Shown here: piece by piece, positions 2,741 through 63,452 of the stretch | Layout of the letters: every line of letters starts with the position of its first letter | How positions within the stretch are numbered: the stretch's first letter is position 1 | DNA from: Laetmonice hystrix | Taxonomy: Eukaryota | Reading direction: 5' to 3' | Assembly: GCA_965235115.1 (NCBI GenBank) | Contig: OZ249451.1 | Coordinates: 12,028,001-12,092,000, forward strand | Length of the DNA stretch: 64,000 nt | Position numbers and translations under genes: made by a program | Notes under the pieces: model-generated | Database searches by the model: none | Seen by the model: the letters and a program-made list of their open reading frames with translations, nothing else | What the model was told of the DNA's origin: nothing

Positions 2741-3452
2741 CTAAAGTCGCGTGCTCACGTCAATGTCACTGTAGTAGAGGTCACCTCGCCGAGGGTTCCG
2801 TTTTTCACCCAGTTCTACGACATTCTCGTGAGAACTGACCGGTCTGATGTCGACGGTGCTGGTCTGGCTGGGAGGCAGGCGTCCCTCGTTATAATATTGC
2901 ATGTTTAGATCAGGTTGACTGGCGTGCTCGTCCTTAATCTCAATCTCCGTGATGGACTCCCCACGCGGGTGGACGTATTTGACCCCAGCGTCGTCAAGTT
3001 CCCCGATGTAGGCAGACGACGAACTGCTCACTGACGTAACGTCCGATCGGTCGAGGGCAGGGACGCCCTCTGACGACCCGGATGTGGCGGTAACCGTGGC
3101 GAAGTCTGGGTAATCCTTCTCCTTGACGTCATACCCCGGCAGACCCGTCAAGTGGTAGTCGTCTGCTAGCTTTGAATTTGGCGACACGACGCTGACGGGT
3201 GTGTGTTTGTCGTGTATGAAGGCGTTGTTAGGGACGACCGCTACATACGGGGCCTTCTCAAGGCCGTTACGTTTGGTTTCGACGAAAGGGGGCGCTGCCG
3301 GCTTGATGTGACCTGATTTTAGTTTGTCACCGTCACCGCCGGAGTAAGCGAAGTCGGCGTCGGATACGAAGCCTGCTCTGTTCGTGTAACCGTTCTCCTG
3401 CCGGCTCGGCTGCTGCAGTATCTGCTCTTTCTTCTTTCGATACATCTTGCAA
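2741..3452 (-). CDS. Exon 13: cytoplasmic tail (CKMYRKKK...DLYYSDIDVSTRL*)
   Basis: Acceptor ttatcag|T at 3453/3452, phase 2 matching the TM exon; basic stop-transfer RKKK; TAG at 2741-2743; matches the 234-aa ORF. Confidence 0.9.
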
Positions 3453-6400
3453 CTGATAACAAAACATTAAAAAATAGATAAGACATAAATAAGTGTAACG
3501 CTGGCACAGGTTAGAATGGTAAAATAGTCCGCGCGGAGTCGCTTCCTTTTCCTAAAATTATGTAGGCCTACTTTAATAGAGAGCCGTGTACTACGTGACT
3601 GCTGTTCTTACACGTGTGAGCGATAATATGTGTAATCATTGGTTCCGTGAAGCTAAATGAGAGGTCACTTTAGCGTCAAAGTTTATATGTACTTGTGATA
3701 CTATAGGGCGAAACTTTGTAGGCCCCTGTAGTTGCTCCATAGGTTGTCAACATCGCACTTCACAACGAACAATTAGGGTTAGTATTTTCACCTGTGACCG
3801 ACAGAACTTAGAAGTGCTTCTCTGGTTATTGGCACGTTGACTATGAAACCTTGGATGACGGCCAGGGTGGTTATCGGTCGAGTATAAAGAACGCTACTCG
3901 GGTAAACTCAACGCCCTCTACAGGTCATCGAGGGAACGAAAGGGAGAGAACTGAGGCAGAGCGTTATTTCCTCATGGTGACTTTCCAAGAAAGTCCTAGG
4001 ATTAGGTTTGAGGCTTGGGAATGTGTGACGTCATATTGTTAGCTCCTCCCACCAGTGTCACGGGGGTGTTACCATGGACACAGGTGGAGTGGAGAGAACA
4101 GAACGGTTTAGTATATAATCACAGAGAGCATGGTGACTCGCTGTGTGGTTATGCCAGATAAACTTGAAGTAAACACTTTTGTTTCCTACCATTTCCAGAT
4201 GGTGACTAGGACAATGACGAGGAACAGCAGTACAGCCACCGCAATGCCAACGTACATAGGAATCAAATCCGCTAGGGTTCAAGGAAAAAAAGTAAATTAA
4301 TCACCTGTTAACCCCCATAAATATTATCAATATAAAACTTTAGGCAACATCCTATTACCTATTCATCGAACTAGCTACATGGGCGGATAGGGGAGGAGTA
4401 AGGACCTTAAGGCGTCGATGGTTTTTTTGTTTGTTTGTTTGTAATTGATCACATTGGGCCCCCTCTCTAAGATTCTAGATCTACCCCGATCTATAGACGA
4501 CACGTGTCTAAGATATGGCCGTATCAGGTGGGACATTCATTCAGAAGAAACACTGCATGAAGTTACGTGTGATACAATTTTAAAGACTTATATTTTAAAT
4601 CTGAGCAGAGTGTCATATAATGGGGCAGGATTGGAGACCAGAGTCTATACTTACGGTCCTCCTTCACCCCCGAGGTCGTTTCCGTCACTGTGTTATCTGT
4701 CGGCAAAGGAAGCAGAACAGAATGTTTACACTAAGATCATAGAATCATTCAAATAGTTGAAACATTAATATCAGATCTCTGAAACTGTAAATCGCTTAAG
4801 CAGCAATTATACACTGTACATTATTTGTGGACTTGGACTGGGACTGCTATACGTAACACGCCATACAAATGTGTGAAGAAAAAGCAGCCGGTAGACCTCA
4901 GTCTTCACCGAAACATGTTTTCATGAATCCCCGATAAGAAAACATCGAGGGGACCAGACATATACTTAAGTCTGGTCTTATACAGATACAGACACGCATG
5001 CAAGTATCACACAGTAAGACTTGGCCAACCGTCAGCAAAATGTACAATGACTTTCCTATCTGAGGACAGAGGAAGAACTTTGGGGGAACTTGTAAAACAA
5101 GATCTATTGAAGACTATTCTTTACCATATGTCCTCACCATGATCTGTAATTACATGTACCTCCTGGTCTTTGACACAAAGAACGATTAACTTGAATGACT
5201 CCGGGGCAATTCCCCATCCGACCAGGACAAAGCCTGAGGTATATGTGATTCAGGCTTCCCTCCTTATTACGTTCATACCTTTAGGTGACACCTAAATGGG
5301 TTAAAAGATGATCTCTGCTTACCGTCTGGGGCAGCGTTCATGGTTAGTCTCTATCCAGATTCCGAATCATCTGCAGAACGCTGGACTGGTGACACATATT
5401 CACGCAAGACGGTGGGGGAGGGTGGAGGGAAGGCAAGAGGGAATTCAATGCAAATCTAGGTCGGTCTTTCATGACTAGCTCAAGGCAGGTGGTTTTTCTA
5501 CCCTCTTATATTCCATGAAAGGTGGGTGGTGTGATGGAGCGGATGTTTTATACTAATTGACGGGCCTAACTCATCTATCATCTAACAGATCAAACGTGGT
5601 ACTTGGCACCCCATGAATTACAGTCAAACCGTACCATCAACATCTGCTCAGGCCCCCTCCCACTTCTGAAAGTATTTACCCCCGTCCTAGGACAAAACTC
5701 GCCCAATTCCTGACAAACTTCACGGCCTCCCCCGGGCGCATCCAGAAATATGCGACCCTACAGGTCCAACCCCAGAACATCATTTTGTTTGTCACAGTTA
5801 TCTATGTGAGAGGATGGTCAGTTTGTGTCATGCGTCTTGACTAGCTACCCGTCACGTTTCAGTGAACACATACGGCTTTCCAGGCGAGGGGAGGGTTGGT
5901 AAAAATGTCACAACCAAATCACATGGTTCACAAAACTCATACATACGTGGAAATCACGCGAGAATTCCTGGGAATTATTGACCTTTAACGTCGATATCCT
6001 AACACCCTCCCGCGGTCACCTCAAGCTTGGCGGAATCGAGGCTTGCCCGGGTTTAACATTGCCAGCTTTAAAAACAACCTGTTGTGCATCTTTTTCTTTT
6101 GGCAGCAACGAAACCTTCATTGTTTACCCTTGAAGATACATTGAGAATATAATATCAAAACGTAGATTTAGATCGGGCGTTGCTCACGCAGTGATCTGTT
6201 TTCTAATCCAGAACCATTCTGGCAGCTTTCGGCGGTTTTCATTCGACAATGTTCGGATATTTCCGTCGGCCGGAGCGCGTGATTCATATGATTGCCGCTT
6301 GGTGGCCAGAGTGGACCGGTTTGTTAGAACACTACTCACCAGGTGGCGCGCCAGGCGTGGACTTGGTGGGGACGCCGGGAGATTCCGGGCCGCCACCGAC

Positions 6401-9400: not shown

Positions 9401-12400
9401 GCAATTGACAGACAAACAGACAACACACATAGGCTTCGTATCCTCGTTATGAGACCCAATCACTTCTGGTGAAAGCGATCACCGCAAAGTTAAAGCCAAA
9501 GTTACCAGAAGAAGGTTGACACAAAGCATATCGGGGTCATATTCAGGGTTTGCTTCTGACTTGGACTAATTATTTAATTTGTCCAACGGTCTAGGCAGAC
9601 GCATGTGCTACAGACGCATCACAACAAATGTTTTAAAGAGATTTGGTTAACCAGATCCCAGAAGAGGGGGTAGGTGTGGGTTTGAGCAGGTAATTGGAGT
9701 CAATTAGTCACACGAATTTTGTAAACAAAGGGAGGAAGTTGGTAGATGGCAGTCTACCAACACACTCTGCAAGACGCCACTAGTGTCGCCACCTATCACC
9801 AAACACATGAACCTCCTGCGTCCTCACGTGTCTGACCTAGGTCTACGTAATACTGGTTTCGTGCGAACACACTGATTGGCTGTTTTAGACAAAACACTTG
9901 GACAAGACAATATAATACATTTATACGCCCATATATCCGTCCGCCCATACAGAGCTATCATATAAACGGACTTGGGGACTGGGATTCCTGGAATTCCATA
10001 TCAAAACTTTTAGATTTGGACTCAAGTTCGTCCCTGGTTGACCTTGAGGTCGGTGTCGAACTGTCGATCTTTTAGTCCTGGCGTGACAAGCGCATGCGTG
10101 TATGGTTCGCGCATATCGTCAAGGCAACACAAGGGGTCAACAACATACATGCATGCTAGAGCTGCCATTGCACGACGTCATCTCAACAGGAAACATCTAC
10201 TCAAACTCAGGCTAGGTAATAATTTGTGTGTAAACTTTGCTAGAAGAAATGAGGTCACCCATGTAGGAAATCTGGTGACTGCAACTGGGAGATAACTGGT
10301 TTACCCCTCCCCCCTCCCCAAATAAAATAAAATTACAAATACATAATAAAATAAATCATTCCTTCTTTTGTTCCTGCTTTTGTTCCTTTTGTTCCTGCTG
10401 CCCAAACAGACATATGTTTTTCATATGCTACATCTTGTGTTGCTTTAAGACTTTACATATGAAAACATTGGTACGATCCAAGCACAAGGGGCATTAAGCA
10501 AGAAATTGGAGGTCCAGAAAATCGCAAGTAGAAGACTGAGGGGATGGGGTTGAGACGTCGCGCGCCTTCCAATTCTTACATATCCTAGCTACGTATACTG
10601 TAACCAACTTGCTAACTTTGCTTTAAATCCTTCATTTTGTAATCGCGCATTTAGCTGCAGCCTGATACTGATAGAAATACCCTATAGGTTTAAACTCACC
10701 TGGAAGTGCTGCTGGTGACGTGGTTGGACTTGAAGGTAGGGGACCTAATGTAGGTTGTGTCGGTACAAGCGCTGTATCAAAGAATGAAGGAAAGAACACA
10801 TTATAGATATATGCATGTGACGTATGGGGCACCGGGTGAACCTGACTGTGCGTAGTGCACATAGTAGTCGCTAGGGGGCCCACCTTTACGTGAAACCTTT
10901 GCATCCTGTTAATTTAATCCAACGTTAAATTTAAATATTTCCGTTGTTTTTGTTTATCACTAATCTCTTTTTTAACTGCCACTTTTCCAGTTTCTACTTG
11001 AATATCCCTATTTGCGGCCATTGCGACATGATTAGGCCTACTATTTTTGTGCAAAGATAATATTGGGATTCTCGAGTGCATTTGAGGATTTAGGGTTCAA
11101 GGTATCAGTGTATACTAATTTGATCACTAAATTAATTTTCTTCTAATCAATGCTCGGTTGCTGTCTGCCAGGGAGTCTAAATACTAAGGAATTTAAAAGT
11201 ATATATTAAACAGCTAATTATAAATGTTCATACGGTCATATGTAAACATTTCTCAGACCACAATTATTATGTTTAAGATGGTAAGTACCAAAGGCAAGTT
11301 GTTTTTTATTTGTGTGTGTGGGGCATTACAGTCGCACTGTCGTGAATTTAAGGAATGCATGCAAAATAAGCTACACCTGTAACAAAGTTACAAGGTGTCA
11401 AGTTACTCTGTGATAAGGTAAACAACCCTGCTTCTGATGTGACTTAGTGAACAGCCATGCTTCTATGACAAGGTGCACAGCCCTCTAGCCCAACAACCAC
11501 CTCTTCTGTGACAAGGTGCACAACCCCCTAGCCCAACCACCTCTTCTGTGACAAGGTGCACAACCCCCTAGCCCAACCACCTCTTCTGTGACAAGGTGCA
11601 CAACCCCCTAGCCCAAAAACCTCTTCTGTGACAAGGTGCACAACCCCCTAGCCCAACCACCTCTTCTGTGACAAGGTGCACAACCCCCTAGCCCAACCAC
11701 CTCTTCTGTGACAAGGTGCACAACCCCCTAGCCCAACCACCTCTTCTGTGACAAGGTGCACAACTCCCTAGCCCAACTACCTCTTCTGTGACAAGGTGCA
11801 CAACCCCCTAGCCCAACCACCTCTTCTGTGACAAGGTGCACAACCCCCTAGCCCAACCACCTCTTCTGTGACAAGGTGCACAACTCCCTAGCCCAACTAC
11901 CTCTTCTGTGACAAGGTGCACAACCCCCTAGCCCAACCACCTCTTCTGTGACAAGGTGCACAACCCCCTAGCCCAACCACCTCTTCTGTGACAAGGTGCA
12001 CACCCCCCTAGCCCAACCACCTCTTCTGTGACAAGGTGCACAACCCCCTAGCCCAACCACCTCTTCCGTGACAAGGTGCACAACCCCATACCCCAAAAAC
12101 CTCTTCAAAAGTGGTGAAATAATAGTCATGACGTCAAAGATGCATGGTTTCGCATTTTACTTTTAACCCACTACTCTTTGTGAAGAGTTATTCACATACG
12201 ATGGGCTATTATTATAGTAGTCAAGAAGCGGCAACATGACATTTGCATTTAGGTCGATGTAGTCGGACGTTTAGGTGAATCACCGTATCTCTATCCAGTG
12301 GCGGTATTAGACTATTGTTAGTACTGTACATTAGAAGACTTTGCCATACGTAGTATACCCTATAGATTAACTAGAGGAGATTTGGGTGTCCTTAAGACCT

Positions 12401-15400
12401 CGGCAATGGACATCTTCATGTAATCTCTTTGGATATATAGAGGGAGCACCAGTCAATAATACCGTGAAACGGATGAACTTTTCTTGGATCGCAAATATTT
12501 TCAATCTCCTGGTAGTACTGACTGGGCCATTGGAGTTTCATGAAAAGCCAGAGATAGAACATGATGGGGCGACTCAGTACCAATGAGGGGGTACTTTGTC
12601 CTACGAGGTGGGGTATTCTGCTCTAATTTATGCACTATTTAGACTGTCTAACATTATAACTAGACATCAAGTTTCGGCATATCTAAACTACGTTATAGTG
12701 TTGATATAGCCGTCAGATCATTAGATATCGCAGGGGTACTATAGGTTTACGCAATGCTAACCCAGTGTCTATTATGACGTCAGAGCGTTCGTGGGCAGTT
12801 AGAAAGCATGACGGTCAGTGATAATACTGTCATTTTGTTGTCAGGTAGGGGCACTACGATCATACAGGAGGACTAAACCATGACACTGTCATTTACTTAA
12901 ATTATTTACCTCTGATATATTCTGTAATATTATACTGAATGAAGTAATTAGTTTGGTAGGGATTTTACAAGTTGATGCCGTGTATCATACTTGCCTGTTG
13001 GCGACGGTGGGAAGTATTCTACGTGTACATAGAATAAGACATTATTTTTCTTAAATATAAATGAGAATGGCTTAATGTCCACATCATGCCTGAGTAGACC
13101 GATTAATCCAATAATCGTACAAAGTACATGGAGGCTAACATAGGTAATTTTTATGATTGGCTTCTCAACCTTAATTGTATGGTTCAGTATGAAGCATAAT
13201 TAACGTCATTTACATTAATAAAATGTAGCATTTAAAACTTGATGTACAAACCTTTACTCTAGGTAACCCCTAACAACCTTGCTATGCGTTGACGTCGACT
13301 TCCGGTTTTAAGTATAAACCGGAAGTGGTCGACGGTTTCGACCTTGACCCCCTTGACCTCCCTTTGAATTGACACTTACTGGTGTTGTATGTTTCCGTAT
13401 ATTTTATTGTGTATGCCTACATATACAGTACGTGCGAAATATCGAGCTACATTATGGTATCTAAATAGGGCCTACCGGTAACCGGAAACCCAGCACTGTC
13501 AAAAGCTACGTTAAGAATGTGAAGAAAACGTGAATCCGATTCACACCATCCAACCAACTATTCTGTTCGGAAGAGGAGTTGGGGCGACTGAGAACAAAAT
13601 ACTCACGTCTTTCACAAATAAAACTCTGGTGTTCACTGCAGCCGACGTCGCTCCATTCGTAGGTAACTGAGACCTTGTAACTCATGACGACACACTTCTC
13701 TCCCTCATTGGATGGAACCCCTCCGGCCCAGGGGGCAAACCGCAGCCGGTCACCTGTCGGAAAACCAAACCATTCACATGTTATCATTTTACGTCCAAGG
13801 CCCTCGTTGGAGTCACCCATGATTAGGGTATGAATCTTTTTTCTGAAAATATTAGGGGTTAGTGACAAGTTCTTGGCTGCGAGCACATCCATTTTATAGG
13901 CTGTCCTCGTACGTGCAGATACATATGAAACAAATGAAAGAAGAAGAAGAACTTTGTTGTCTTTTTGACACGAAAGCTTTTCTTCAAACGTTAACACCAT
14001 ATCAGAAGAAGAAATGTTAAGGTGAATGGTTGGCAAGTTCAACTCTAATACCCCGCCTTGACCTTGCTCATGTTTGAGCTCACCGTTAGCCCAGGCCCAG
14101 TTGACCTTGGTTGCTCCAAGCCAGAATATGCCCTGAACGCATGGCAGAACTTCCCGGATAGCGTCGTGACTCGCCTCCGATGTAATCTCCAGTAATCGAG
14201 CACCCTTGGCGAAACATCCGTTACGGGCTCCGAACCACGTGTCCTCGGCGTACTGATCGTAAGATATACAAGCCTCTGCCGTACTCGTCAAACCTTTCAA
14301 CTGACATTCGCTCTTATCATAATCTAGATAAATAAAAGCAAACGATTCCATCATCGTAACTATGAATGACGTAACTGAGTTCAATAACACCCCGAGGGAG
14401 CGTCTCACAACCATCGTTATATCTTGTAGGTTAAAATCCCAAATAAACATGGTTTTAATGCTACATTCTGATACACAACTCTTTTCTATATTTTAACGTG
14501 TTTTTCAGCCACTTAAAATGGAATACATATTTCTGAAAAGAAACATTGAAATACATAGTGTGCTAACAATGTTAGGGGACCATTATGATTAGCTTGCAGC
14601 GACCTCTGACGACTCTCAAAGAAACTATATGTAACGTTCGCCAACATGTCTATTTGATATCGTAACCCTACACGTGTCGGTATCCATGGAGACAGTTACC
14701 ATACATGCAGATGTACTTGAATTTCCTGGCGCACCTCTCGCTCTGCCACCGCCAACTCTCGCTGTCACTCTCGCACTTGTAAACCATGCACTCCATGTCA
14801 TCAATCCCGCCGCTGCCGCCAGAGGGCGACCCAAAGGCCCACCCGCCGGACCAGATACCTGGGGTCAGAGGTCAAGATGTAAGCTGACAGAACATGAAAA
14901 CTGTTGCAATGGGTATTTAATATAAACTTATGGGAAGAATAAAAAAATTCTTATATAAAATTCACGGCTCCAAAGTGGAGTGAGCCTGTGCAACGCTTCG
15001 TATCATGTTAAGTATATGGCGGGTTGCGTTCCTTTTCGGTTACCTGCTATGTAAAGCCGGGTACACGAAAGGTGATATAGATACACTAATTATAAAAGAA
15101 ACCCCCAACAGTTGTGAAATAATTACCGTCCACCAAGAAGACCTGGTTAGAGCTTGTGCCTCCACAGTTCTGGTCGAAGTCTCCCAGACATGGCTGGGTG
15201 CATTCTGAACTGAATCCATACGACCCGAACGAATTGTCACAGTTACAGAGGATGCCGGACTGTGGCAAAACAAGGAAAATACATTGATGTAGATTATCTC
15301 ATATATTTCTAAACGCATAGATTACATATTGTAGTATTTCTAAGAGCCATTTTAAGAGTTAGGATACATTTAAAGTCGAAATAGGCGCTTATACGAGTAG

Positions 15401-18400
15401 GTCTGTATAGGCCTCTGTGACACCATGTGATCAATTTTCTTCATTTATGTTGTTAAAAAAACGGCAGAACGCTTTGTTCTTGAGCCTCAGGCCGGGCTCA
15501 AGTCAGTAAGCCTATAGCTGTGACGTCACGTGACGTCACAAGACCACTAATGCCGACTGGTGGTGCTCCCTGTGTATGTTCGACTGTACCATCGGCCGAT
15601 TCTCTAGTTCAGGTCAAGGAGGACTCTCCTGGTCGGGACTAGCAGAGCCCCCTTTGTGCTGAACTGGGAAAAAGAACCGGGCTAACTGTATCACAGCGAC
15701 ATCTACCGGAAGTCGCCTGACTCACCTGGACGCCGGCGTAACGGTAGCCGGCTCGGCGACACCCTTCGATACATTTCTGCGGTGTGACATCATTAATCTG
15801 AACTTGGAAATTCAGGTCCTTGTCGACCGGGTCGTCCTGGAAACAGCCCTGAGAGGAGAGGTTCACCCGCCCTTAAAGAGGTCAAAGTAATTGCATTACA
15901 ACATGATGTTTGATAATAAGGCCAGACCCTGGCGCTGTCGTGCCACCCGATTAACGTCATTCTTCGGTGGCGGAGTTACTTAAGGGCCTAACTTCCTACT
16001 CCCGGTTGCTGCCTTTACTGAAACTGTTAAAAGGACACACCCCTTACCAAGAGTTACTGAAACTGTTAAAGGGACACACCCCTTACCAAGAGTTACTGAA
16101 ACTGTTAAAGGGACACACCCCTTACCAAGAGTTACTGAAACTGTTAAAGGGACACACCCCTTACCAAGAGTTACTGATTTTGAAAAAGGGCATCAAGCTG
16201 CTACACTGGTTTCCGAATTTACCTTCCCATGAGGTCTATACTAACGCACCTTCAGTGACTTACATACAGGATTATTTACAGGCCTACCCATCCCTTACTT
16301 TAAGTGACCTACCTGTCACCCAGTTCCAATCACCAACCACTCCTCGTAAACCAATCCACGTATCCAAGGCCGAGTTGTCATTCAATAGCTTGTAAAGCAT
16401 CTCCTGAGAAACAATAAAAGACAAAAATAACCTTCACAGCGCCTCGAAACCATCCGGGAATTATAAATCCCGGATGCCCGTGTTGTAATTTAATGAAACC
16501 ACAAAGTATTAACCGATGCAATGCCGATCCGATTCTACGCACTCAAACCAGCCACTCTCACCCACGCCATGTGTGGGAGAATGACAGCTGTAGTTCAAAT
16601 AATGACCGCTAGATGGCAGTACAGTGTAGACGAGGCGATACGGCAACACAAACCTTTAATACATATCTAGAAACCGTAATATGTAGGCTAATTGAACATA
16701 TGAGCCATGAGGATTAGAAAAACACTTCTAAATTCTGATTTATTACCTGGAGACTTTTATCTTGAATGACCGCTAGTTGACCTTGATATACTTCCTGACA
16801 GTATTGGTTGGCCTCGTCCCACGTTTTTCTACAGTTACAGAGCAGGTATCCCATCCCATTCCTCGTCTTCTCTTGACATCGGTCACACGTCTGGCCTGTA
16901 AAAGTCACATCATTAGTAGAGTATGAGTTCATTATACTAATTCGTTAACGTGTAAGTTCATTTTGTGCTTAGGACCACTGTACACATATCCAAAAACACC
17001 ATTACGACATATCTCTATCTATCTGTCTGTGTCTGTCTGCCTGTCTGTCTGTCTGTCTGTCTCATTTTGAGGGCCACACAGCCTACAGCGGCCCCTGGCA
17101 ACTTTCAGAGAAACTATGTTAAACTGTCAGACAGGACGAAATATTCATTTCATCTGGTTGAAGTAAAAGAGATTGTTTCCCGAAGACTGAGCCAACCTTT
17201 TGGCGCTCGACCATCTATCTGTCCAATCTATCTATCATTGTCTTGTTATAAGATGATTGTAAATCTTGGTCGTCCTCTTCCAGGTCTAGAATTGTCACCA
17301 GCCAGACAATTAAGCTTGGCTCTACCTTTTAGACTTTCAGAGGAAAACCAAGAAGTACACATCTAATTCATGCTGGAAAAAGTCGTGTTTTTTGAGGCGC
17401 TTGTCGATATTTCTTCTTTAGAACGAAGCAGCGCTGAAGCAAAAAGGGGGATGGCGAAGTGACGTCAATTTTCTAGCAACTTTTTATCGTCTATGAATTA
17501 CCAGCAGTCCTTGAAACCGCTTTTAGAAAACATTTTTCTTTCTGCATGCAGACAGTTGGCTGAAGAATGCGCCAGACCCTCGGCTGTGGATTTGTCTGAA
17601 TGTTGAAAATAAAATAATGTTTTATGCTGAAGAAAACTTTTGATATCCCCTTATAGACGTATTTATATGTTAACGGGCGAGTCGGTCAAAGTCGACAAAA
17701 GGAACACTTTTCTGTGGTATTAGACAAATTTTATACACCTCGGCTACTTTATTAACATCTGGCCAGGCTAAGGTGAATGCGAATGACAGGCAGGCCTTCA
17801 GATCAACCTTTTCATCTCAGGAATATGATAAGAAAACTGTACAGTCTCATTATGAGTGAGATGATCTTCAGCGTCGGTAGCTATCTACCTATGTGTTTTT
17901 TAAGTCCACCCTGCAATATACATGTCCAGTTCACGCCCTGATAACATAGAATATGCCATTCTAAGAGCATTTCTTTCAGGAAGTACTCTGTTTAGAGGGA
18001 GTCTATTAGAGAAGGTTGGCAGATCGGAACCTGACTAATGTTTTCATGGATGTAATTTTGACAGGGATGCGATGAAATATGTGACTTTTAGTAACGTCGT
18101 CCTTTTGAAAAGAACCTTCGACTGTGTGCTCTCATTTCATAGTGTGAGAACTACATACATTTACCAATAAAACGGGTCAAATTAAGAGGCCTTATACCGT
18201 AATCCCTGAAACGCTACAACTGTGACGCGTTCAGTAAGGCGAACTGGTGCGAAACGTTCTGCGCGAGAGTTTTGGTTCGGCTGAAACGTTTCCATGACGC
18301 CAACCGAAGAGGACGCGGCGAGAGCTATCCTCCTCGAGGAGTTTATGGTGGCTTCAGTCTCTGACAAAATGTGTAAAACCATCCCCATCCTACACCTGTG

Positions 18401-21400: not shown

Positions 21401-24400
21401 TTGACACAAACTTATACATACAATTAGACCTCAGGGAACGCTTCGACCCAAAGGTTACTTTCACATGGTCTCGGGAAAATGTTGGATCGCCAACTGGGTA
21501 ACGTGCATGTGTATTATACAGAATAAATTTGGCTTTCACAATGCTTGAATCCACTCTGAGATTTTCCTTTGCGACTTTCCTGGGAGAAATTGGCCACAAT
21601 GGGACTGCCCATCTTAGAGGAACATGTCATGGTTTTACATGGTCTTCAATATCGGAAGGTTTCCTTCAAAATCGTAAAAAGTATGCAGCATGCAGACACG
21701 AAAAATGACAATGATAGCCGTTTTCCTCGCGAGGTGACTTGATATAAGGGCCTTCATGCAGAATCCACCGGTGGCTTCCCTCTATATCATGTGGAAATGG
21801 TAGAGAACGTGGCATGAGACAACTATGGTTGTCTCTGTGTCTCAGCCACGTGTAGTTTTGTGACTACATATGGAGGTACATGAGGATTTTGTGCGAACAG
21901 GACGCCTGCCTATATTATGTCAGATTGTAAAATCATCAATCCTGAATTTTTCTTTCATACGCCCTGCCATGCCCGTGACCAGGGGTCAGCTGGTCTGCAC
22001 GACAAAGAACTGGTCTCCTCTCTGCGGTCTGTTGTCCTTACATCAAGAACCCATCCCAATATTCTTGCTTACATCTCAACGTAAACGGTAAACGTAAACC
22101 GTAAACGTAAACGGTGAACGATTCTCAGAGTCTTCTCTCCTTCACAACCTGTGTGCAGGTCTTAACTGACAACTGCTTTAAACTGACAACAGTTGTCAGT
22201 TTAGATCTAGGTCTAAACTGACAAATAATGATCACTATAGTGCTGGAATGTTAATCACTAATATGAATAGATTCTCCATGACAGGAATGTAGCCGGCATT
22301 GCTTCTCACATCAACCAAAAATATTGGCAGTGCACATTTTGTTGTTTTGTGTGTCGCATCTAACAAAATACTTGGAATACCTGTAAGAACAATATTATTA
22401 GAGAAAATCATAAGTGGAACCTTTATTTCTATAGTGCCTTTCACAGAGAGCAATTATCGTTAGATACTGTCATCATCTGAATCAGTTCAAATTAGTGATT
22501 ACCATTTCAGCGGCTAGTAATCATTATTTGTCAGTTTAGACCAGGATCTAAACTGACAACTGTTGTCAGTTTAAACCAGTTGTCAGTTTAGACCTGCACA
22601 ACCTGTCGTTAGCTTGTCGTATCGTTAATGTATGTTCAATGGTGATTTTAACGGACGACAGGATAACGATAGTTGTGAAACGCACCCCTGTGTCGTTCAC
22701 TGGACCACCCAGGTATGCCATCACCTTGAAATACTATCTCACGTACCTACTGGATAACAGATAACTTCTCATGTCTTTAGGTTCGTACACAGGGGGAAAC
22801 AGTTTTCAAGTCGACTGGCGCTTTTGTTTATGAGGTCATATTTCCATTAATTTGAAAACGAACCTGCTTGCCCAAATGGGTATATTGTACGGATTTATTG
22901 GGGCAACGACTACTCCTCCCCCACCCCCGGTGATTAAATCCTGTACGGAAATAGATGAAGTAGTGCATGTAATGAAAAGGTAAGTTATTGCGATACGATG
23001 CTGTGAAATCAACGAGGGGGCGCCCTCTGTGGGCCGTTTCTGGTACATGTACTATGGGAAGTGTAGGGCCCGAGTGAGGATGTGGTGGTGGGGTGGGGGT
23101 GGGGGTGGGTGGGGGGGATTAGGAGACAATCCTGACGGCGACTGATGGTCTCTTACAGATAACTGGCAAGGGTTCTGTCACGTGTAACATTCACAGATAC
23201 AGAATTACACGCCCCGCGTTTGATAACCTAACGGAGTTCTGACTTCTTATACCACATCCAATCCGTGCTACCTCCGCTGGCTTTCCCTTCCCGCCCCAGT
23301 TTCCCTGCACCCCGACATCGCAAACTGTCAGAGTTACCCGCTCCCAGGGAGGTAGATGAGACAGGTACGTTACGAGTTGGTGGAGATCCAACTAGGCTGA
23401 AAATCCAAGGTAATACCCAGGGTCAAAGGTCAAGTCTAACACGCAATATGTTCCCCCTTATATGGGTATAGGGTGCGGTGAATGGGGTAGGGTACACCAC
23501 CCTTTTCGGCCGCAGGTAGGGGTTGACTGTGACCTCGTATGTGTACCGGGATTCCATGGAGGAGCTCCCAGTAAGCGTAACAGAAACGTCCCAAATGTCC
23601 ATTGACACTCAAAACATTCCGTTTAATTAACTTTGGGGTACAAATGCACGTAATCCGTGTAAAATAGCAGAGTAGTTAAAATGTCCGTGTGTACTCTGGA
23701 GTGGGGTGATGGTCACTGACCACTCCAGCACAGTTTCTAGTCTAAGTAAAAAGTTCTCACCGAATTTAGATTAAATGTCTGGGAAAGTACTTAAAATTAC
23801 TGGGGGGTTCGTATGACCCGGTGGAGGTCAGAGGTCAAACTGGCCTGAACCTCCACACGCAGCGACACGTTTGACATAGTGCAGCTGTTCATGAATGTAT
23901 GTAGTTTGTGTGAGAAAAAGATGTCCAAAATGTCTCTGTGGCTATAGTATAATCCAATACACCGGGAGGGTGGGGGTCGCTGCGATCGGAGGTTCAACCG
24001 GCAACAAGTTCAAGACTCTCTTGTATCCCGTCTCCATCCATCTGATCGTAATCCCATGGAACGAGTAGTGCCAAACGCTGCACACTCCGAATCACCACAA
24101 CGTCCTTAGCACCATTATATGTCTCTGTAGTCTCCCCGACCTTGTACTGCTTATAGGAAAGGGACACCTTGCGGACCTTTCCATCTGCACCTGGAAAAAC
24201 TTCTTTGATGAGGCCAAGTCGGTACTCGCCTCGCAGGGGGTTACTGTCTGCAACAATCACCACATCTCCCGCACAAAGATTGCGATGTGTGGTGTGCCAT
24301 CTCTGCTGTATCAGTAGGGTTGGAGCATAGAGCTCCGTCCACTTTCTCCAAAACTGCTCCGTGACAGCCTGCACCAATCCGTAGCGTGTATGCAAGTTCT

Positions 24401-27400
24401 CCTGCAACTGCCAACCACCCGGATTCTTTGCTGTGGCGCGACCCAATAGCAGGCTGTTGGGTGTGAAGATGGTGACATCCGAGTCATCCTTGGATCGTAC
24501 TCCAATTGGCCGTTCATTCAAGAGGTTAGCAACCTCTGTACAGACTGTCATGAGCTCTGGTACAGACAAGCGCTGGTTGTGGACAGCGAAGTGGATTGCC
24601 CTCTTGGTGCTCTTCACCAGAGACTCGACAGCCCCCTGATGCCATGGGCTGTCTGCCGGCCCAAAGATCCACTTCAGTCCGCTGTCTGAACCTTTTTTCA
24701 CGACCCTGTCACGGTCAAGGCTCTCCCAAGCCTCCCTGAGCTCCCGTTCTGCACCAATCAGCTGGGATCCTGGGTCACTGTAGATGGTGTCTGGCCAACC
24801 ACGGATGCACGCAAAACGGCTGAGAGCCATGAGGAATGAGCTGGTGTCATACCCAAAGACAACTTCGATGTGGACAGCTCTCATGACCAAGTCAGTGAAA
24901 ATGACTCCATATGCCTTGCCACTGGTGCGCTTCTGTACTTCTCCCCTTACACGGTAGGGGCCAAACAAGTCCAACATGACCTTGCTGAACGGCGGTGAGG
25001 GTTTGAGCCGGGCTTCCGGCAGTGGAGCCATCTCCTGCTTCAGGAAGACGGCCTCTCTCAGTCTGCATTGCTGACACTGATGTTTGACCGACTTGGCCAG
25101 CTTGTCACCATGTGGAACCCAGTACTGCTGCCGGAACTTGGCCAATGTCGCGTCTCTGCCACCATGCCCAGACCTGTGTGCACGCTCCATGAACAGACGT
25201 GTTCCCCGATGGCCAGGTGGCAATAGCTTCTGTAGGTTCGAGTCCAATGTCATGGCGTTGTGTTGGATCAGGCGAGTTCCAACTACCCATTGGCCTTGAC
25301 CATCCTGAACTGGTAGGAGCCTCCCAAACCTCCCACCGCTTCGTCCTTTTCTGTCTTTTTTGTTTAGTTCTTCTTTGATGGAGGCTTGCAGGTCACTCAC
25401 AATGAAGTCCTCAGCATCTCTGAGATCCTGTGGACTCACCAGTACGATCCTTCCACCATGAAACGTCTTGTGCTTCGCAATGTTTTTAATTCGGGCGATG
25501 ACCCAAATTAACTTGTTGATGTCGCTGACCCTGCTGTAGTCAATGAGGGCAGCACTCGCCTTTGTTGCTGCAGAGGAGTAGACCTTCTTCTCTCCGGGCA
25601 GTGGATCCCTCGTCTGTAGGCCAAACTTCAGACCCCACTCCACAGCAGGCTGATAGAGAATTGGTGGGCCTTTCCACCAACTCGAGTCCTCATCAAGATC
25701 CCGAGGCAATCGACCTCTGGTTAGCCAGTCTGCAGTGTTGTGCTTTCCAGCCATCCAAGCCCAGCATCCCATTTCACCGTCTGTTGCTGCTTGGATTTCG
25801 CCCACGCGCACACCTTCATAAACCTTGAAGCGAGTGCTTGTCTTGTTGATCATATTCAGTACCGTTTCTGAATCAACGATTTGCAAAACTTTCTCATACT
25901 CGAATCTTGTTTCCAGTTCGATCACTTTCCTCCCCCTTTTTGACAGGAGAGCTGCGTTCAGCTCCATCTGGGGAGTTGAGAGTCGGTTAATTGGGGCTAT
26001 CCTACACTTTGCCATGATAAGCCTGCACCAGTAGCTCCCATCCTTCAGCTGCCACCGGATGTACGCGGCGAATCCATAAGCCAAATCACTGCCATCACTG
26101 AGAATTATCAGCCAGGGGCGTCCAACCGCGTCTCGTGGGTGCAGGCAGCGTTTCAGCTCCAGCTGTTCCAGCTCAAACATTGATGTGAAGAAGTTCACCC
26201 ATTTGTCCCTTAGATCATCTGGAAGTTGGTCATCCCATCCAAGTTTCTTCATCCAAGTCTCCCGCAGGTAGATCTTCGCCCATAGCGTGAAGGGACAGAC
26301 GAGTCCAAGTGGGTCATAGATCCTCATCACCTGCTCCAAAACTATTCTCCTTGTCAACACTGATGGTAGACATCTAGGGAGGTCTTCTTTCGATAAATCT
26401 GTCTCTGTATGCACTCCTCTCCTTTTCTTGGAAAAGTTGAGTGACACCTGATACACTATAACGTCCTCTTGTGGCTTCCAACCAAGGCCAAGCACGCGGA
26501 GATTTTCATTGCTGCCTTTGAGCATGTCCCTAAATGGCCTCCCGCTCTCCTCTTCTGGAGCTTCACCATCCAGGTCACCACCTTTCCGCGAGCCAGCATC
26601 GCCACTGAACTGCCAACACTTTACCTGAAACCCGCCTTTGGAGAGCATGTTTTCGGTAGCTCTTGCCACTTTTAGGGCCTCAGGCTTGTCCTTGAATGAG
26701 TCGATCAGGTCATCTACGTAACTTGACTTTCTTAGCAGGTCAGCTGCAGCGGGGCTGTCGTCTTCAAATCTACTTGCCGTCTGATACACGGCCTCAGAGC
26801 TGATAGCAGGTGCAGGGGTGTCGCCCATGTTGACACGCTCCATAACAAAGACTTCAGGCTCCTTGCTCTGATCCAAACCCCTCCATAGAAAGCGATGACA
26901 ATGTTGCTCCAGAGGCTTCAAGTAGATGGAGTTGAACATCTTTCTTATGTCTCCCACTAAGGCAATTTCCTCCTCTCTCCAACGAAGCAGTATGCCGACC
27001 AAGTTGTTCATATAGCAGTCTGGTCCCTTTGCCAGGCAGGAATTCAGGGATGTCCCCTTGTAGACTTGACTGGAGTTAAACACTATTCTCACTGGTGTGG
27101 ACTGTGAGTGAGAGTTGACCACAGCTAGATGACTGATATAAAACTTTGGGCCCTTCCAGCTCTTCATCTCCTCCTTGGACAACTTACGCGCCACTTTCCG
27201 GCAAAGCATGTCTTGGATCTGTGCTTCGTACGTAGCTGCCCACTGATCATCCTTTTGAAGCTTGTGCTCCGTGTTTCTCAGTGTCCCCAAGGCTGCACCA
27301 TAGTTGTCAGGAAGCGTAGCTGGGTCCACTAGCCAGGGGTAACTTGTTATCCAACGAGAGTTGACGTCATCATACTCCAGATTGTCTCGTATCATTTTCA

Positions 27401-30400
27401 ACTCTTGTTCCTCTTTGAATGAGTAAGTCTGCCCCACTGTCGGACATTTTCCACAGCGACAGGCACCACAGCGCGGGGTCGTCTCAGTCGCAATCTCTTC
27501 TCCTAAAATGAAATCAGTTATCCGCCCCTCAGCACCCTTCCTCCACACCGACTGTGTGGTGTGTGCAGCCGATGGCTGATCTTTATCAGCGTCCTCACCT
27601 GGTTCATCACTCAAGGCTGGCTTGCTTTGGATAACCATTGGTGCTTCTTGTACACTGACATTAGGATCTTCACTTGGTTTACTATCCCTCGTGTCCACGG
27701 GATCGTCAAATGAGGCTGCATCTGATGCACACCTCGCCGGCTTCATCACTGAGAAAGTCTCAGATGTCCAGCCCCTCTCGAACTCCGGATGTGAAAACTT
27801 GCGTAACTGTACATTGAAGGAATCGCTCTTCAGTCTGACCTCATGAACCGTCTTGGCCAGGTTCACATCCATGCACGTGTCTTCCTTTAACTCGGGGTGA
27901 GCTCCTTGAAGGCAAATGCCAAACTCTCCATTCATGATGCTGAGATGATCTCCCGCCCTAATGATTTCATGCTTGGGATGAAGACCGAAATAATCACAGC
28001 CCAGTAGTATATCCACTGATGTTGACCGGCGCTGGAGTGCTTCTGGTTCATAGTCGGGAAACAGTCTTGTTATCACCTTGAGATCCAACTTGCTCACTGG
28101 ACCTGTTATTCTGTCCATGCCAAAAGCGATGATCTCCACTTTCCGTCCAGCCTGGGTCATCAATGGTATCTTATACTGACAAGTTTCATACTGTTTCTCC
28201 ACGCCACCCATTGTTGTAACATCCAACGTGAGACGCTGCAGTTTCTTTACCTTGAGTCGATCGGCAGCTTGATGAGTGATGTAGGTTGTGTTGGAGCCAC
28301 CATCACAAAATACGGTAACCGACTTGCCACTCCCCGAAACTGCTGCGTGCTGTATGGGATACAGCGCCATGGTGGGACTCTGTGCTGTGTGACTCTCAGC
28401 TGTTGTACGATGGTAATCAGACTCCCCAGTACGGCCCATGCACAGCAGGGGGTGATGTCCATGCCTGCCACAGACCGAGCAGGCCCCGTTTACAGGACAC
28501 CTGCTCCTCCGGTGGTTCCCAAAACATCTAAAGCACGCACCCACTTGCTTCAAAGCTTCATACTTTTCATTTCTGGGCATTCTCTGAAATTCCTTGCACT
28601 CCTCAGTCACATGCTTCATATTATCTCTGCGGTGAGCTGGGAAAGCACAGTTGTGAAACTTGATCTGTCCACTGCCCTCACCGTGGTGAGACTGACCACG
28701 TGCTTGCTGGGCAGAGATCCCTCTGCGACCTTCGTCTCTACCTCGGTAATTACAATCTTCTCTTCTTTTATGTTGCATCTCAGCCATTCTCATGACAGCA
28801 GCACGTTCATCGTCCAAAAATGTCATAAAAGGCACAAAGGGTCTCATCCTCTCACCTTGCGTAAGTGTGCGCTGTTTCCTAACCCATTCAAGCCTCAGGT
28901 GCATTGGCAGAAGTGAACTGATGTGGTCCACATCTCTCATCGTCAACGCGTTTAACTCTCCCAGTTCCTCCAGCTGGCTGTATGCGGCTTCCACCTCGTC
29001 AACAAGCGCGATGAGGCCACGGTAATCCTCCGCGTTAACATGTTTCAGCTGGATGAGACTGTCTAGTGCCGCCTGGACACTTGCACTGGTGTCATTGTAA
29101 TAGTCTTCGAGCTTTCTCCACATTATATCATATGCCTCGGGCTTGGTGATATACACGGACTTGATTCTCTTACTAGCCTCTCCTTTTACGCTCCTCTTCA
29201 ACTCATACGCTAGTGCCTTTTTATTTTCATATGTGTTTTCAGCTAGCTCCCTCCAGACAGATCTGAATTCTGGCCAGTCTTTACGCAGACCAGAAAATGT
29301 GGGTAACGCAATCTTGGCTAACCTGATGTTACTGTGGGCGCTACCCGTGCTGAACGCTGCATGTGTTGGGCTGCTGATGAACGGTTGATTAATCGGCGAC
29401 CATCCTGCGTACGGTGCATACACTGGAGCAGTGGCAGGCCCAACGGATACCAAACTTGTCGCAGGTACATGTATAAAGTTCTGAGCAGCTGACACACTGG
29501 AGACACAGGCTGGGCTACCTGCTGGGAGTGATGCCAAACTTGTCACAGGTATAAAGTTCTGATCAGCAGACACACTGGCATGGGCAGGGCTATCCGAAGT
29601 GAGTGATGCCAAACTTGTCACAGGTATAAAGTTCTGAGCAGCAGACACACTGGCATGGGCAGGGCTATCCGAAGTGAGTGATGCCAAACTTGTCACAGGA
29701 ATAAAGTTCATATCAGCAGACACACTGGCATAGGCAGGGCTATCCGAAGTGAGTGATGCCGAACTTGTCACAGGTATAAAGTTCTGATCAGACACACTGG
29801 AGACATAGGCAGGGCTACCTGAAGTGAGTGAGGTGCCACCGCCCAACGCAACACCAGCTGTTGTTACTGCCATTTTCGCCTTGCTCCTGGTCCACTTCAA
29901 TTCATCCACATTCGCCATGACTCGAGATTCGTCTTCAAGCTGTTTCTTCAGTACTTGGCTGGCAAGACTCTTTAAACAACTTCTTCACAAACTCAAGTCA
30001 GGTGTCGTAGTAGATACAATAAATCACGGACTGTAGATGTGTCGTTCTGCAGCACACTGATGGTCATATGCGTATGTCACAGTTCACTTGGATGTGCTGA
30101 GGGCAGGCCGATCAGCAAGTTCGCATAGGCCGTGGAGTCACTTTGGCTGTAGATCCGCTTAGTTAATTAAACTGTACCGGGATTCCATGGAGGAGCTCCC
30201 AGTAAGCGTAACAGAAACGTCCCAAATGTCCATTGACACTCAAAACATTCCGTTTAATTAACTTTGGGGTACAATTGCACGTAATCCGTGTAAAATAGCA
30301 GAGTAGTTAAAATGTCCGTGTGTACTCTGGAGTGGGGTGATGGTCACTGACCACTCCAGCACAGTTTCTAGTCTAAGTAAAAAGTTCTCACCGAATTTAG

Positions 30401-33400
30401 ATTAAATGTCTGGGAAAGTACTTAAAATTACTGGGGGGTTCGTATGACCCGGTGGAGGTCAGAGGTCAAACTGGCCTGAACCTCCACACGCAGCGACACG
30501 TTTGACATAGTGCAGCTGTTCATGAATGTATGTAGTTTGTGTGAGAAAAAGATGTCCAAAATGTCTCTGTGGCTATAGTATAATCCAATACAGTATGGGT
30601 CATGATATCTCAGCGGTCCAAGCGGGTCCACATGGAAAGATATAAAGTACATCTAAACATGCCCGTTTACTGACTGCCATTCAGGGGCAACGGTTTATAA
30701 TAATGTGAAAAAGTAATAGCTAAGGTCATGACTGAAATCAGAATTTTATTCTCCTCAGCATGATTTATTGACTTGAAGTTTTCCCTCTTAACGTAGATCT
30801 GAAATATGCGCCATCATGGCTTAAAGAAGTTGTGCTCACATAAAACTACACGGCCTGTGTATATAAACAAAGTGTCCGGGCACGGCTGTTCTTAACCTCC
30901 ACTCGCCGAGAGCTCTCCTGTTTGGTATAACTGACAGATCCTAAAGCGGACGCATCTACCACAGACGATCATCTCTAAACACAATATTTATTCATTTTAT
31001 CATGTTTTTCCACATCATCGTTTGGAGAGGTAATGATTTACCGAACTACAACTCGAGTTTTGATTGGAAATAATTCGAGTTTTCGCCGGCACTTTATCCC
31101 AAAGACACGCGCCTGCTATAAGCTTTGGTATGGTCGGCGCCTGTCTGTACATGGGGAAACCAGTCATAAATAGACAGTTTACTGTTAGACAATATTGTCT
31201 TAGAAAACAGCGGATGACCTTTAAGTTACTGAAATGATCAACTACGTTGTTTTCTGACCTAAGTCCGTTTTGTATTTAAAGGTCCTCTTTTTCAGTTTTC
31301 TTTTCGATTTACGCAAAGATGACAGCAATGATGAAAGTTCAAAGAAATCTCCGGTATTCTCGATCATTAGGCCCAATTAAAATGTCCGACTGGATGAGAA
31401 GTGGGTTCTTTCTGACGTTTTGGGGCCAGGAATATATTGTATATTGGCGAAAGCGACAATAGGCTCACCGTAGATGGAACCCTATACATGTATATTCTTA
31501 CCTTAAAACGGTAGGGAAAAAACTATGCTTACAATTTCATACGTGTCATCCTGAAAACCATGACAACCTCCTGAAAGGGGTTAATATAAAACTTGATCAT
31601 TAAGTTGGTAAATATAAGGCGGAGCACTTTACCTACGGTTAGCAATTACCAGACAACATCAAACGGTATGCAGCGTAAAGGTTAAATAATAATATTATAT
31701 ATGGACGGTTACAGAGATGATTTTGAATTGCTCTAACCATTAATGAAAACTAATCTGAATGGTTTGTCATTCGACGCTCCGTCAAGGTCTGTGACATTCT
31801 TTGGTCCACTGAATTTGGACATCACTATGTACGCATGTCTAACCGGCACCATAGTGCAAGATATAATCAAAACTCTTGGGTCATAATTTAAAAAAAAACA
31901 CAATTGAATAGAAATGTAACTCGAACATTTAGGCGCATATTTTTGAACAGGCCGACATAGAAGAATGTACATACAAGCAATTGCCCTTGATCGTTTAGGC
32001 ATTAAAAGAATTTCGCTAGCGCATTTATCGTGTGACTTTGATAATGGTACTGGACAACTCCTAATGGAGCATTTACTCTGATCTAGGAAGAAACTAGCTT
32101 TACCGTTAGTTAAAAAAACGAATAATGATTTTTTTTCTATAAATGTACCCCTCTATAATTTATTAGTAAGACGTGCCTCACCTGGTCTGCAATATTCGGC
32201 AAGTATACCAACTATATGTGATCCTTTCAAGAAAGTCTTGTTCAATTTCTTTATGAAAAAAAAGAAAGTCTTGTTCAAGAGATACAATACATTGGTGTAC
32301 AATCGGACGCGGAGATGGTACTTATCCACAATTACTCATGACACCCACCTTTTGTATGGTACACACCTTATTGCTAATGTTGCGATAGCAAAGTGTTACT
32401 TCAGTCTCCCGATTAAAGAGCACCAATTGCAATCCTATCTCCCGTTGGAAACTGACACCTGTCGAATTTAACAACAACGGTCTGGGATCCTAAAAAAATG
32501 TCTGAGTTGTGGTCTGAATAGACAGGTCAGGATGCAGCAGGGTAAACTGTAGACAAAGTGTTGTCTTACAGGTTGTGCCTACGTGTGGCTGGACGGACCC
32601 TGGTAAGGTATAGGGACGCACAGAGGGAGGTTGATATTGAAAGTTTGTCCAAACCAAGTGTATAGTTGTGACATGTAAACGTCTCACACAGGGACATGGT
32701 GGGCACTGCTTGCTGTTCAACATCAGTTTGAATGGTTTAGATGAGATCTTGTGGCATAGAGTGAGTGAATGCATGGGGGGGGGGGGGGGGATGCCATATT
32801 GCAGCCATACTCGGAGAGAAAAAAACTTTCAAACTTGCTCAGTCATGGGACAGTATAGCCTACTCTCACAGACACGGCTGGTCATACCAATACTTTGGTA
32901 GCCCAGTTGCGGAGCACTGGGGAAGGCCAGTAACAGTTGCGGAGCACTGGGGAAGGCCACAGAAGCGGTATAGAGGAGTGATTCAAATACATCCGCTTCA
33001 TAAAGCTGATCCTTCAACCTTCACCCCATGCGTCACCCCTTACAAACACCTAGGGGTGCTCACATTAAGGTTATAAGTCTATGCATGCTCCTACAAGGGC
33101 AAGCACTCGGAGAACATGACGAAGACACGAAAGCGCTACATGTTAGCTAACAATTACTCCTATTTGTTCATTCCTAATAAGTTGGTGGCAAATGTACTCG
33201 GAATATAACTTGTCGCTTAAGATCACGACGTTCTGTTTTGAATGGATTCCTTTTGGTAATATCTCTAGGCGCTATCAATGGATCCTTTTATCCCATGTAG
33301 AATTTCCTTAATTCCCGCTTCACAAGGAATGCGTTGTTAGTTGGTTAAAGAGGATCTTTTTTAGCAGTGTCGTCAGATCGGGCTATATTTGTGAGGAAAT

Positions 33401-56890: not shown

Positions 56891-57120
56891 TCAGACACGG
56901 AGATCCAGACATCTTACGTCAGACACGGAGATCCAGACATCTTACTTGAGACACACAGATCCAGACATCTTACTTCAGACACGGAGATCCAGACATCTTA
57001 CTTCAGACACGGAGATCCAGACATCTTACTTCAGACACGAAGATCCAGACATCTTACTTCAGACACGGTTGATCCAGACATCTTACTTCAGACACAGAGA
57101 TCCAGTTTTACTTTAGACAC
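56891..57120. repeat. 28-bp minisatellite, about 8 copies
   Basis: Unit tcagacacggagatccagacatcttact. Confidence 0.95.
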
Positions 57121-63059: not shown

Positions 63060-63452
63060 CAATGGAACCAGCTATAGGATCTTAGTCCATTGCCAGGTTA
63101 CAATGAAACCAGCTACGGTCTCAATCCAGTTTTCAAAATGAAATCAGCTTCAATCTCAGTCCATTTTCTGGTCACAATGAAACCAGCTACGATCTCAATC
63201 CAGTTTTCAAAATGAACGAAACCAGCTATACGATCTCAGTCCATTGTCTGGTCACAATAAAACCATCCACGACCTCGGTCAATTGCCTGGACACAATGAA
63301 ATCAGCTACGAACTCAGTCTATTGCCTGGTCACAACCAGTTACGATCTCAATCCATTGCCTAGTCACAATGAAACCGACTACGATCTCAGTCCATTGCCT
63401 GGTCACAATGAAACCAGTTACGATCTCAATCCAGTTTTCAAAATGAAACCAA
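63060..63452. repeat. Degenerate 36-39-bp tandem repeat, about 10 copies
   Basis: Unit about cacaatgaaaccagctacgatctcagtccattgcctggt, with a recurring variant ctcaatccagttttcaaaatgaa. Confidence 0.85.

What the first reader, a model, noticed from the sequence alone, without database searches (positions are those of the whole stretch)
30147..30214. Predicted U5 inverted-repeat stem and U5-leader stem framing the self-priming site
Seen on the element strand: ACUGGGA (30203-30197) can pair with UCCCGGU (30182-30176), 7 bp with one G-U, ending 3 nt before the LTR end. The adjacent upstream CGCUU (30208-30204) pairs with AAGCG (30160-30156), the first five bases after the PBS. Past an internal loop, CUGU (30214-30211) pairs with ACAG (30150-30147). 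The PBS is thus held single-stranded between two stems. Established: U5-IR and U5-leader stems of this kind flank the PBS in Tf1 and avian retroviruses. Inference: independent structural support for a functional priming complex at this site.
Basis: partly seen in the sequence, partly recalled or inferred. Interest (0 to 1): 0.7.

Follow-up and report, generated by a model that had tools for sequence, protein, structure and literature searches.

The report
Hairpins beside a retrotransposon's self-primer site
A young BEL/Pao jumping gene that likely starts copying itself with its own RNA end has one predicted strong hairpin just before its primer site, but the full set of stems known from yeast Tf1 is no more common than chance across 48 related families, so these stems are likely a family quirk, not the shared mechanism.

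Summary
All pairings are at the stated coordinates. The host is a young BEL/Pao element, not Tf1/sushi. The U5 inverted repeat is robust: pairing probability about 1 in every fold, p about 0.02 against shuffles. The two U5-leader stems (5 and 4 bp) are not distinguishable from chance (p 0.12-0.16). They form only when the PBS is blocked, and cross the primer duplex as a pseudoknot. Across 48 BEL/Pao families whose PBS matches their own LTR, a Tf1-type three-duplex 'pretzel' occurs in 15, against 16.4 expected; implanted stems were detected in 40-47 of 48 controls. What is conserved is the bare primer:PBS duplex (9-15 nt, intron-split in 28). So the stems give little independent support for priming. 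This scan has reported BEL/Pao self-priming and split primers before, on other DNA; my paper searches found no such report. No RNA data were available.

The parts
30173..30592 (-). 5' LTR, 420 bp, TG...CA
   Evidence: one mismatch to the 3' LTR (position 30275)
23542..23961 (-). 3' LTR, 420 bp
30593..30597 (-). 5-bp target-site duplication, upstream copy (CATAC)
23537..23541 (-). 5-bp target-site duplication, downstream copy
23994..29984 (-). single gag-pol frame, 1996 codons stop to stop (first ATG 29918): DUF1759, DUF1758, RT, Peptidase_A17, Integrase_H2C2, DUF5641 = BEL/Pao
30252..30263 (-). predicted self-primer, 12 nt, perfect complement of the PBS; contiguous (no good intron candidate)
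   Evidence: 0 of 200 internal control starts match the LTR as long
30253..30258 (-). ATTAAA, the only poly(A)-type hexamer in the LTR, lying inside the predicted primer
   Evidence: 15 hexamer variants scanned; use as a signal is inferred
30214..30251 (-).
   Evidence: -16.5 kcal/mol, z -5.7; opposite strand -2.3, z -0.1
30175..30204 (-).
30161..30172 (-). primer-binding site abutting the LTR end; no TGG tRNA-type start; holds the palindrome TTAATTAA
30204..30208 (-). 5' arm of the proposed U5-leader stem (CGCUU); chance level
30156..30160 (-). 3' arm of the proposed U5-leader stem (AAGCG); chance level
30211..30214 (-). 5' arm of the second leader stem (CUGU); C30214 is claimed by the 17-bp hairpin
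30147..30150 (-). 3' arm of the second leader stem (ACAG); weak
23962..23986 (-). 25-nt C-rich tract where the polypurine tract should lie; conserved in relatives from other hosts

Best explanation
This is the primer region of a young BEL/Pao retrotransposon that likely primes reverse transcription with the first ~12 bases of its own RNA; the flagged U5 hairpin is predicted to fold but is specific to this family, and the leader stems are likely incidental. Shown: the 12-nt match ends exactly at the LTR boundary; the same arrangement recurs with different sequences in 48 families; the U5 hairpin and a 17-bp hairpin are predicted far above shuffles; the three-duplex pattern is not enriched across families. 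Inferred: transcription starts at or just before 30263; the 5' end pairs with the PBS; RNase H cuts after about base 12, as in Tf1; DNA synthesis starts at the LTR end. The two hairpins would fold the 79-nt stretch between primer and PBS into a three-way junction with only 11 unpaired bases, which would favour pairing within one molecule. Because the only poly(A) hexamer lies inside the primer, the same duplex would also mask the 5' copy of that signal. The feature shared by self-priming BEL/Pao families would be the bare duplex with a sharp edge, not a Tf1 pretzel.
For: (BEL/Pao, LTRs, TSD); 33 of 39 own-genome families with a readable 5' LTR end, plus 15 metagenome families, carry a 9-15-nt self-complement; the PBS starts with GT in 39 of 48; the base after the primer can pair with the base before the PBS in only 2 of 48; the three-way junction is the predicted fold (z -4.0 and -4.7) and does not change with RNA length; the window's primer-to-PBS stretch is the most structured of 48 (z -4.8; family mean +0.1); no enrichment of either stem across families, with a power control; a hexamer lies downstream of the primer in 41 of 47 other families, which fits the primer being the RNA's 5' end.
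Against: No RNA data: start site, cleavage and poly(A) site are unseen. Covariation gives no support for either hairpin: 6 of 13 variant pairs kept in the 17-bp hairpin (about 5.7 by chance), 2 of 6 in the U5 stem (about 2.1), with one two-sided change; those copies are old and partly descend from one insertion. Within the element's own clade (9 families) leader helices are slightly better than shuffles (p = 0.037 with the window, 0.098 without). The window itself passes the pretzel test at p = 0.016. Families and boundaries were picked by hand from script output.
Confidence: 0.5

Rival explanations
1. One reading: this family has a true Tf1-type pretzel, and U5 stem, primer duplex and leader stem together are needed for primer cleavage.
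For: On the leader side of 8 copies, the 3 substitutions fall in the internal loop and none in the stem bases. There is a weak leader-helix signal in the clade.
Against: The significance comes from the U5 stem; the leader part alone has p 0.12-0.16. 15 of 48 families form a pretzel against 16.4 expected; the nearest relative with a readable leader, L150, has none. One of 8 copies breaks the outer leader pair without compensation (L193). A rigid 12-bp duplex bridged by 3-4 free bases is strained (own estimate), which the blocked-PBS folds ignore.
Confidence: 0.2
2. The hairpins serve 3'-end control rather than priming: they hide or loop out the cleavage site and G/U-rich element behind the poly(A) signal, as retroviral poly(A) hairpins do (recalled).
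For: The window family is the only one of 48 with the hexamer inside the primer and is also the most structured. The closest relative L150 has a hairpin starting at the same place with AAUAAA across its loop (z -2.6).
Against: No 3'-end data. The U5 stem lies 50-80 nt from the hexamer and next to the PBS. Only two families show the pattern.
Confidence: 0.15
3. All flanking stems are chance: the best of many LTR ends, noticed because it looks like Tf1.
For: p about 0.02 in a set of 48 families is expected about once; 5 of 48 families reach p <= 0.05 for the U5 helix; no covariation excess.
Against: Two independent hairpins (z -5.7 and -3.2) stand side by side, and the first works only on the RNA strand through 7 G-U pairs and no A-C mismatch.
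Confidence: 0.15

Closest known systems
Tf1/Tf2 and the Tf1/sushi group (Ty3/gypsy chromoviruses): self-priming with a three-duplex 'pretzel' (PMC10085805, PMC7175516, PMC4600332; passages seen)
   Same: PBS abutting the LTR and complementary to an LTR segment that fits the RNA's 5' end; 11-12-nt primer; this family can be drawn as a pretzel.
   Different: The element is BEL/Pao. [quoted passage not shown] Many BEL/Pao primers are split by an LTR intron. Here the primer overlaps the poly(A) hexamer and is followed at once by a 17-bp hairpin.
Belpaoviridae / BEL-Pao as described by ICTV (PMC8742986, whole text read)
   Same: Domain order, LTR length, element length, single gag-pol frame, animal host.
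   Different: ICTV gives an 18-nt tRNA-Arg/Gly PBS and a ~10-nt polypurine tract. This element has a 12-nt self-complementary PBS and a C-rich tract. Only 3 of 39 readable own-genome families have a TGG-type PBS.
U5-IR and U5-leader stems of avian sarcoma/leukosis viruses (recalled; the Lin and Levin 1998 title was seen only in reference lists)
   Same: A 7-8-bp stem ending a few bases before the PBS.
   Different: Those viruses use a tRNA primer and their stems were tested by mutation; here the leader stem is at chance level and nothing is tested.
TAR / Houba / Osr-1 (Ty1/copia) and Tcn1, predicted self-primers (PMC6317226, passages seen)
   Same: Self-priming predicted from sequence outside fission yeast.
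   Different: Other superfamilies; plant and fungal hosts.

Membership tests
BEL/Pao (Belpaoviridae) | Pao-type Gag, protease, RT, RNase H and integrase in PR-RT-RH-IN order | tested here: met
   PF03564, PF05585, PF00078, PF05380, PF17921, PF18701 in that order
BEL/Pao (Belpaoviridae) | LTRs of 0.2-1.2 kb and element of 4.2-10 kb (ICTV); TG...CA ends and a short TSD (recalled) | tested here: met
   420-bp LTRs, 7051 bp, 5-bp TSD
BEL/Pao (Belpaoviridae) | 18-nt PBS complementary to a tRNA 3' end (ICTV description) | tested here: not met
   no TGG within the first bases after the LTR; 12-nt match to its own LTR. The host tRNA set itself was not searched.
BEL/Pao (Belpaoviridae) | polypurine tract before the 3' LTR (ICTV description) | tested here: not met
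   C-rich tract, identical in 7 copies and conserved in 9 metagenome loci
Tf1/sushi self-priming group | Ty3/gypsy chromovirus polyprotein | tested here: not met
   BEL/Pao domains, no chromodomain hit
Tf1-type self-priming mechanism | PBS complementary to an LTR segment downstream of U3 | tested here: met
   12 of 12 bases; recurs in 48 families
Tf1-type self-priming mechanism | primer is the true 5' end of the RNA and is released by RNase H cleavage | not testable with these tools
   needs RNA ends or a biochemical assay; indirect support from hexamer position in 41 of 47 other families
Tf1-type pretzel | U5 inverted-repeat stem next to the PBS | tested here: met
   predicted, p about 0.02, in this family only
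Tf1-type pretzel | U5-leader duplex next to the PBS | tested here: inconclusive
   can form, p 0.12-0.16
Tf1-type pretzel | three-duplex structure conserved among relatives | tested here: not met
   15 of 48 against 16.4 expected (controls with implanted stems 40-47 of 48); 9 against 7.7-8.4; no covariation excess

The most novel reading that the evidence does not exclude
Most BEL/Pao retrotransposons of marine invertebrates self-prime by a route distinct from Tf1: a bare 9-15-bp duplex with a sharp edge at the LTR boundary and no flanking pretzel, often completed only by splicing an LTR intron. This family has gone further: its primer doubles as the poly(A) signal, so priming and suppression of premature 3'-end formation are one RNA switch, and its plus strand is primed from a conserved C-rich tract instead of a polypurine tract.
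Probability: 0.3. Interest if true: 0.8.

Novelty: new variant of a known kind. Interest (0 to 1): 0.5.

Why it matters
BEL/Pao elements are described as tRNA-primed (PMC8742986). If most families self-prime without the three-duplex structure that Tf1 needs (PMC10085805), their RNase H must recognise the primer by a simpler rule, and the Tf1 pretzel is not a general requirement of self-priming. The practical point: a Tf1-like stem beside a BEL/Pao PBS should not be taken as evidence of priming, since such stems appear at chance rates. The flagged stems alone are of modest interest. The primer that overlaps the poly(A) signal and the C-rich tract are the more testable oddities of this family.

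Tried and rejected
RNA evidence: no RNA holder listed (three contig sets of one study). Rfam: two chance-level matches inside the ORF, none at the LTR. No tRNA genes in the window. Viral contigs: 43 pattern matches, no relative. An intron-split primer in the window element: the best spliced pairing (12 nt) is no longer than the contiguous one and the donors are weak; rejected, though not excluded. An extension of the primer duplex into the U5 end as the shared structure: worse than swapped controls (p 0.97-0.99). General folding of the primer-to-PBS stretch: mean z +0.1, 2 of 48 below -2; the first 40 nt after the primer show a marginal trend (p = 0.048) that includes the window's own value of -7.4. 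A pairing partner for the C-rich tract: no conserved partner; best sites are imperfect and differ among 8 elements. A common fold in the element's clade: none seen in 9 families. PBS palindrome as a dimer signal: considered, not tested. The tree is the quick version; 4 rows were left out; it is used only to name the nearest relatives. Lin and Levin 1998 is not held, so Tf1 could not serve as a positive control and random sequences with implanted stems were used.

Full report
1. Observation. They lie at the 3' end of the 5' LTR of a 7051-bp element with 420-bp LTRs that differ at one base, a 5-bp target-site duplication and one 1996-codon frame. Pfam places it in BEL/Pao, not in the Tf1/sushi group. 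Seven copies in the genome cover LTR and leader at 97-100% identity; older LTR relatives are 68-72% identical.

2. Folding. The U5 stem has pairing probability 0.93-1.0 in all 14 folds. The leader stems have probability 0 in the intact RNA, because they cross the primer duplex and the program folds nested structures only. With the primer removed and the PBS blocked, the four outer CGCU/AGCG pairs reach 0.35-0.99, the fifth pair 0.19-0.34 and CUGU/ACAG 0.11-0.59 (0.92-0.96 if the 17-bp hairpin is left out of the input). Blocking treats the PBS as a floppy loop. A rigid 12-bp helix bridged by 3-4 free bases would be strained, so these values are probably too high (my estimate, not computed).

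3. Chance in this element. U5 hairpin: z -3.2 on the RNA strand, -1.7 on the other; best-helix p = 0.019. 17-bp hairpin: z -5.7 against -0.1, with 7 G-U pairs and no other mismatch. Leader stems: p = 0.16 and 0.12, 0.13. Joint pretzel p = 0.016, of which the U5 stem supplies -10.1 of -13.4 kcal/mol.

4. Relatives. I fetched 80 own-genome stretches around RT hits and 78 metagenome loci. LTR pairs were resolved by script and checked by eye; 10 of the 80 gave no pair and several gave nested or truncated ones. Of 39 own-genome families with a readable 5' LTR end, 33 have a 10-15-nt self-complement, 3 have a TGG tRNA-type PBS (L057, L062, L097) and 3 stayed unclear (L033, L064, L099; left out). Of 36 metagenome loci with upstream DNA, 15 gave a 9-14-nt self-complement; near-duplicates and unclear cases were dropped. 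In 28 of these 48 the match is completed across a GT...AG intron, often with a full GTAAGT or GTGAGT donor; in 20 it is contiguous. L050 and L098 are one family with LTRs of 911 and 342 bp, and the difference equals the 569-nt intron. The PBS starts with GT in 39 of 48, and the duplex cannot extend by one more pair in 46 of 48 (L054 includes a G-U pair, and the L169 boundary was set one base off).

5. Are the stems conserved? No. U5 stability: mean z +0.13, Wilcoxon p 0.95. U5-leader gain against swapped leaders p 0.76 and against shuffled leaders p 0.59. Strict three-way geometry: 9 of 48 against 7.7-8.4. Relaxed pretzel: 15 of 48 against 16.4. The test has power: random sequences with implanted 7+5 or 5+4 stems scored 47 and 40 of 48 (p 7e-15 and 1e-7), and unimplanted ones 21 against 18.9. 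Against my reading: 5 of 48 families reach p <= 0.05 with swapped leaders, 5 of 48 for the U5 helix, and in the element's clade leader helices are slightly favoured (p 0.037, or 0.098 without the window). No common fold is visible in that clade. In nine aligned LTR ends of the element's own lineage, 92% of cells pair, but distinct variant pairs keep pairing at chance rates (6 of 13 and 2 of 6). Among 8 copies with a leader, 5 are identical here, one breaks the outer leader pair, and two change loop or PBS bases.

6. What sets this family apart. It is the most structured of the 48 between primer and PBS. Its LTR has one poly(A)-type hexamer, ATTAAA at 30258-30253, inside the primer; no other family has that, and 41 of 47 have a hexamer downstream of the primer. 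The sister family L150 has a hairpin starting at the same place with AAUAAA across its loop. Before the 3' LTR there is a C-rich 25-mer instead of a purine run. It is identical in 7 copies and nearly so in 9 metagenome loci, whose RT matches are mostly 64-75% identical, with similar ends in L124 and L134.

7. Mechanism. Shown: sequence matches, predicted folds, the counts above. Inferred: transcription starts near 30263; the 5' end pairs with the PBS, helped by two hairpins that shorten the loop; RNase H releases a primer of about 12 nt, as described for Tf1 (PMC7175516, passage); synthesis begins at the LTR end. The same duplex would hide the 5' poly(A) signal, while the 3' copy has no PBS behind it. 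The leader stems may form briefly but are not needed to explain anything seen.

8. Literature. PMC10085805 (passages) describes the Tf1 three-duplex pretzel as required and as shared in Tf1/sushi. PMC4600332, PMC7175516, PMC6317226, PMC5443660, PMC3601003 and PMC8220671 (passages) place self-priming in Tf1/sushi, Tcn1 and TAR, or do not discuss it. PMC8742986 (whole text) calls Belpaoviridae tRNA-primed with a polypurine tract. Term searches inside PMC3118150 and PMC554778 found no mention of a primer site. Nine library searches (listings, with passages read for some) showed no report of self-priming in BEL/Pao; Repbase and most subscription journals are not covered, and no supplements were read. 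Lin and Levin 1997 and 1998 were not read; details of avian U5 stems and retroviral poly(A) hairpins are recalled.

9. Earlier notes of this scan. After I had found the self-complement and split primers, look-ups showed that the scan reported both on other DNA, once in this genome. Look-ups on the flanking stems, the poly(A) overlap, the C-rich tract and this sequence returned nothing.

10. Verdict. Observation confirmed; interpretation partly supported. One real, family-specific hairpin; leader stems at chance level; no conserved pretzel. The wider system is a BEL/Pao variant of Tf1-type self-priming. Interest 0.5.

Noticed in passing
window 23962-23986 (-); L111, L112, L114, L115, L116, L119, L123, L149, L150, L153: Conserved C-rich 25-mer ending CCGG directly before the 3' LTR, in place of a polypurine tract; its reverse complement resembles the purine tracts of other families such as L031 and L093. 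No pairing partner found.
   Followed up: partly
window 30253-30258 (-): The only poly(A)-type hexamer of the LTR lies inside the predicted primer; unique among 48 families.
   Followed up: partly
window 30214-30251 (-): 17-bp G-U-rich hairpin starting at the first base after the primer, folding on the RNA strand only.
   Followed up: yes
L050 and L098: Two copies of one BEL/Pao family, with and without a 569-nt LTR intron that splits the primer; exact intron loss or gain.
   Followed up: partly
L020-L024, L026-L030: An old 3' LTR of this lineage (about 69% identical) sits in the same flanking sequence at many places, so it was spread by a larger repeat; several copies have a further insertion in U3.
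   Followed up: no
G000:C11 21.63-21.70 Mb; C5 37.85-37.87 Mb; C8 27.22-27.23 Mb; C4 39.94-39.95 Mb: RT hits at regular 6-8 kb spacing: tandem arrays of whole BEL/Pao elements.
   Followed up: no
window 29508-29866: 75-bp tandem repeat (about 4 copies, 25 codons each) inside the N-terminal part of gag.
   Followed up: no
window 30430-30483 (-): U3 holds a TGACCT-C-TGACCT direct repeat, resembling a nuclear-receptor half-site pair (recalled), within two short inverted repeats.
   Followed up: no
window 13506-14492 (-), 59507-60445 (-), 2741-3466 (-): Open frames of 328, 312 and 241 codons, not examined.
   Followed up: no
window 11374-12226, 15976-16209, 56841-57094, 63059-63447: Minisatellites with units of 40, 39, 28 and about 39 bp.
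   Followed up: no
L057, L062, L097: The three tRNA-type PBS families form one branch (support 81, quick tree) among otherwise self-complementary families.
   Followed up: partly
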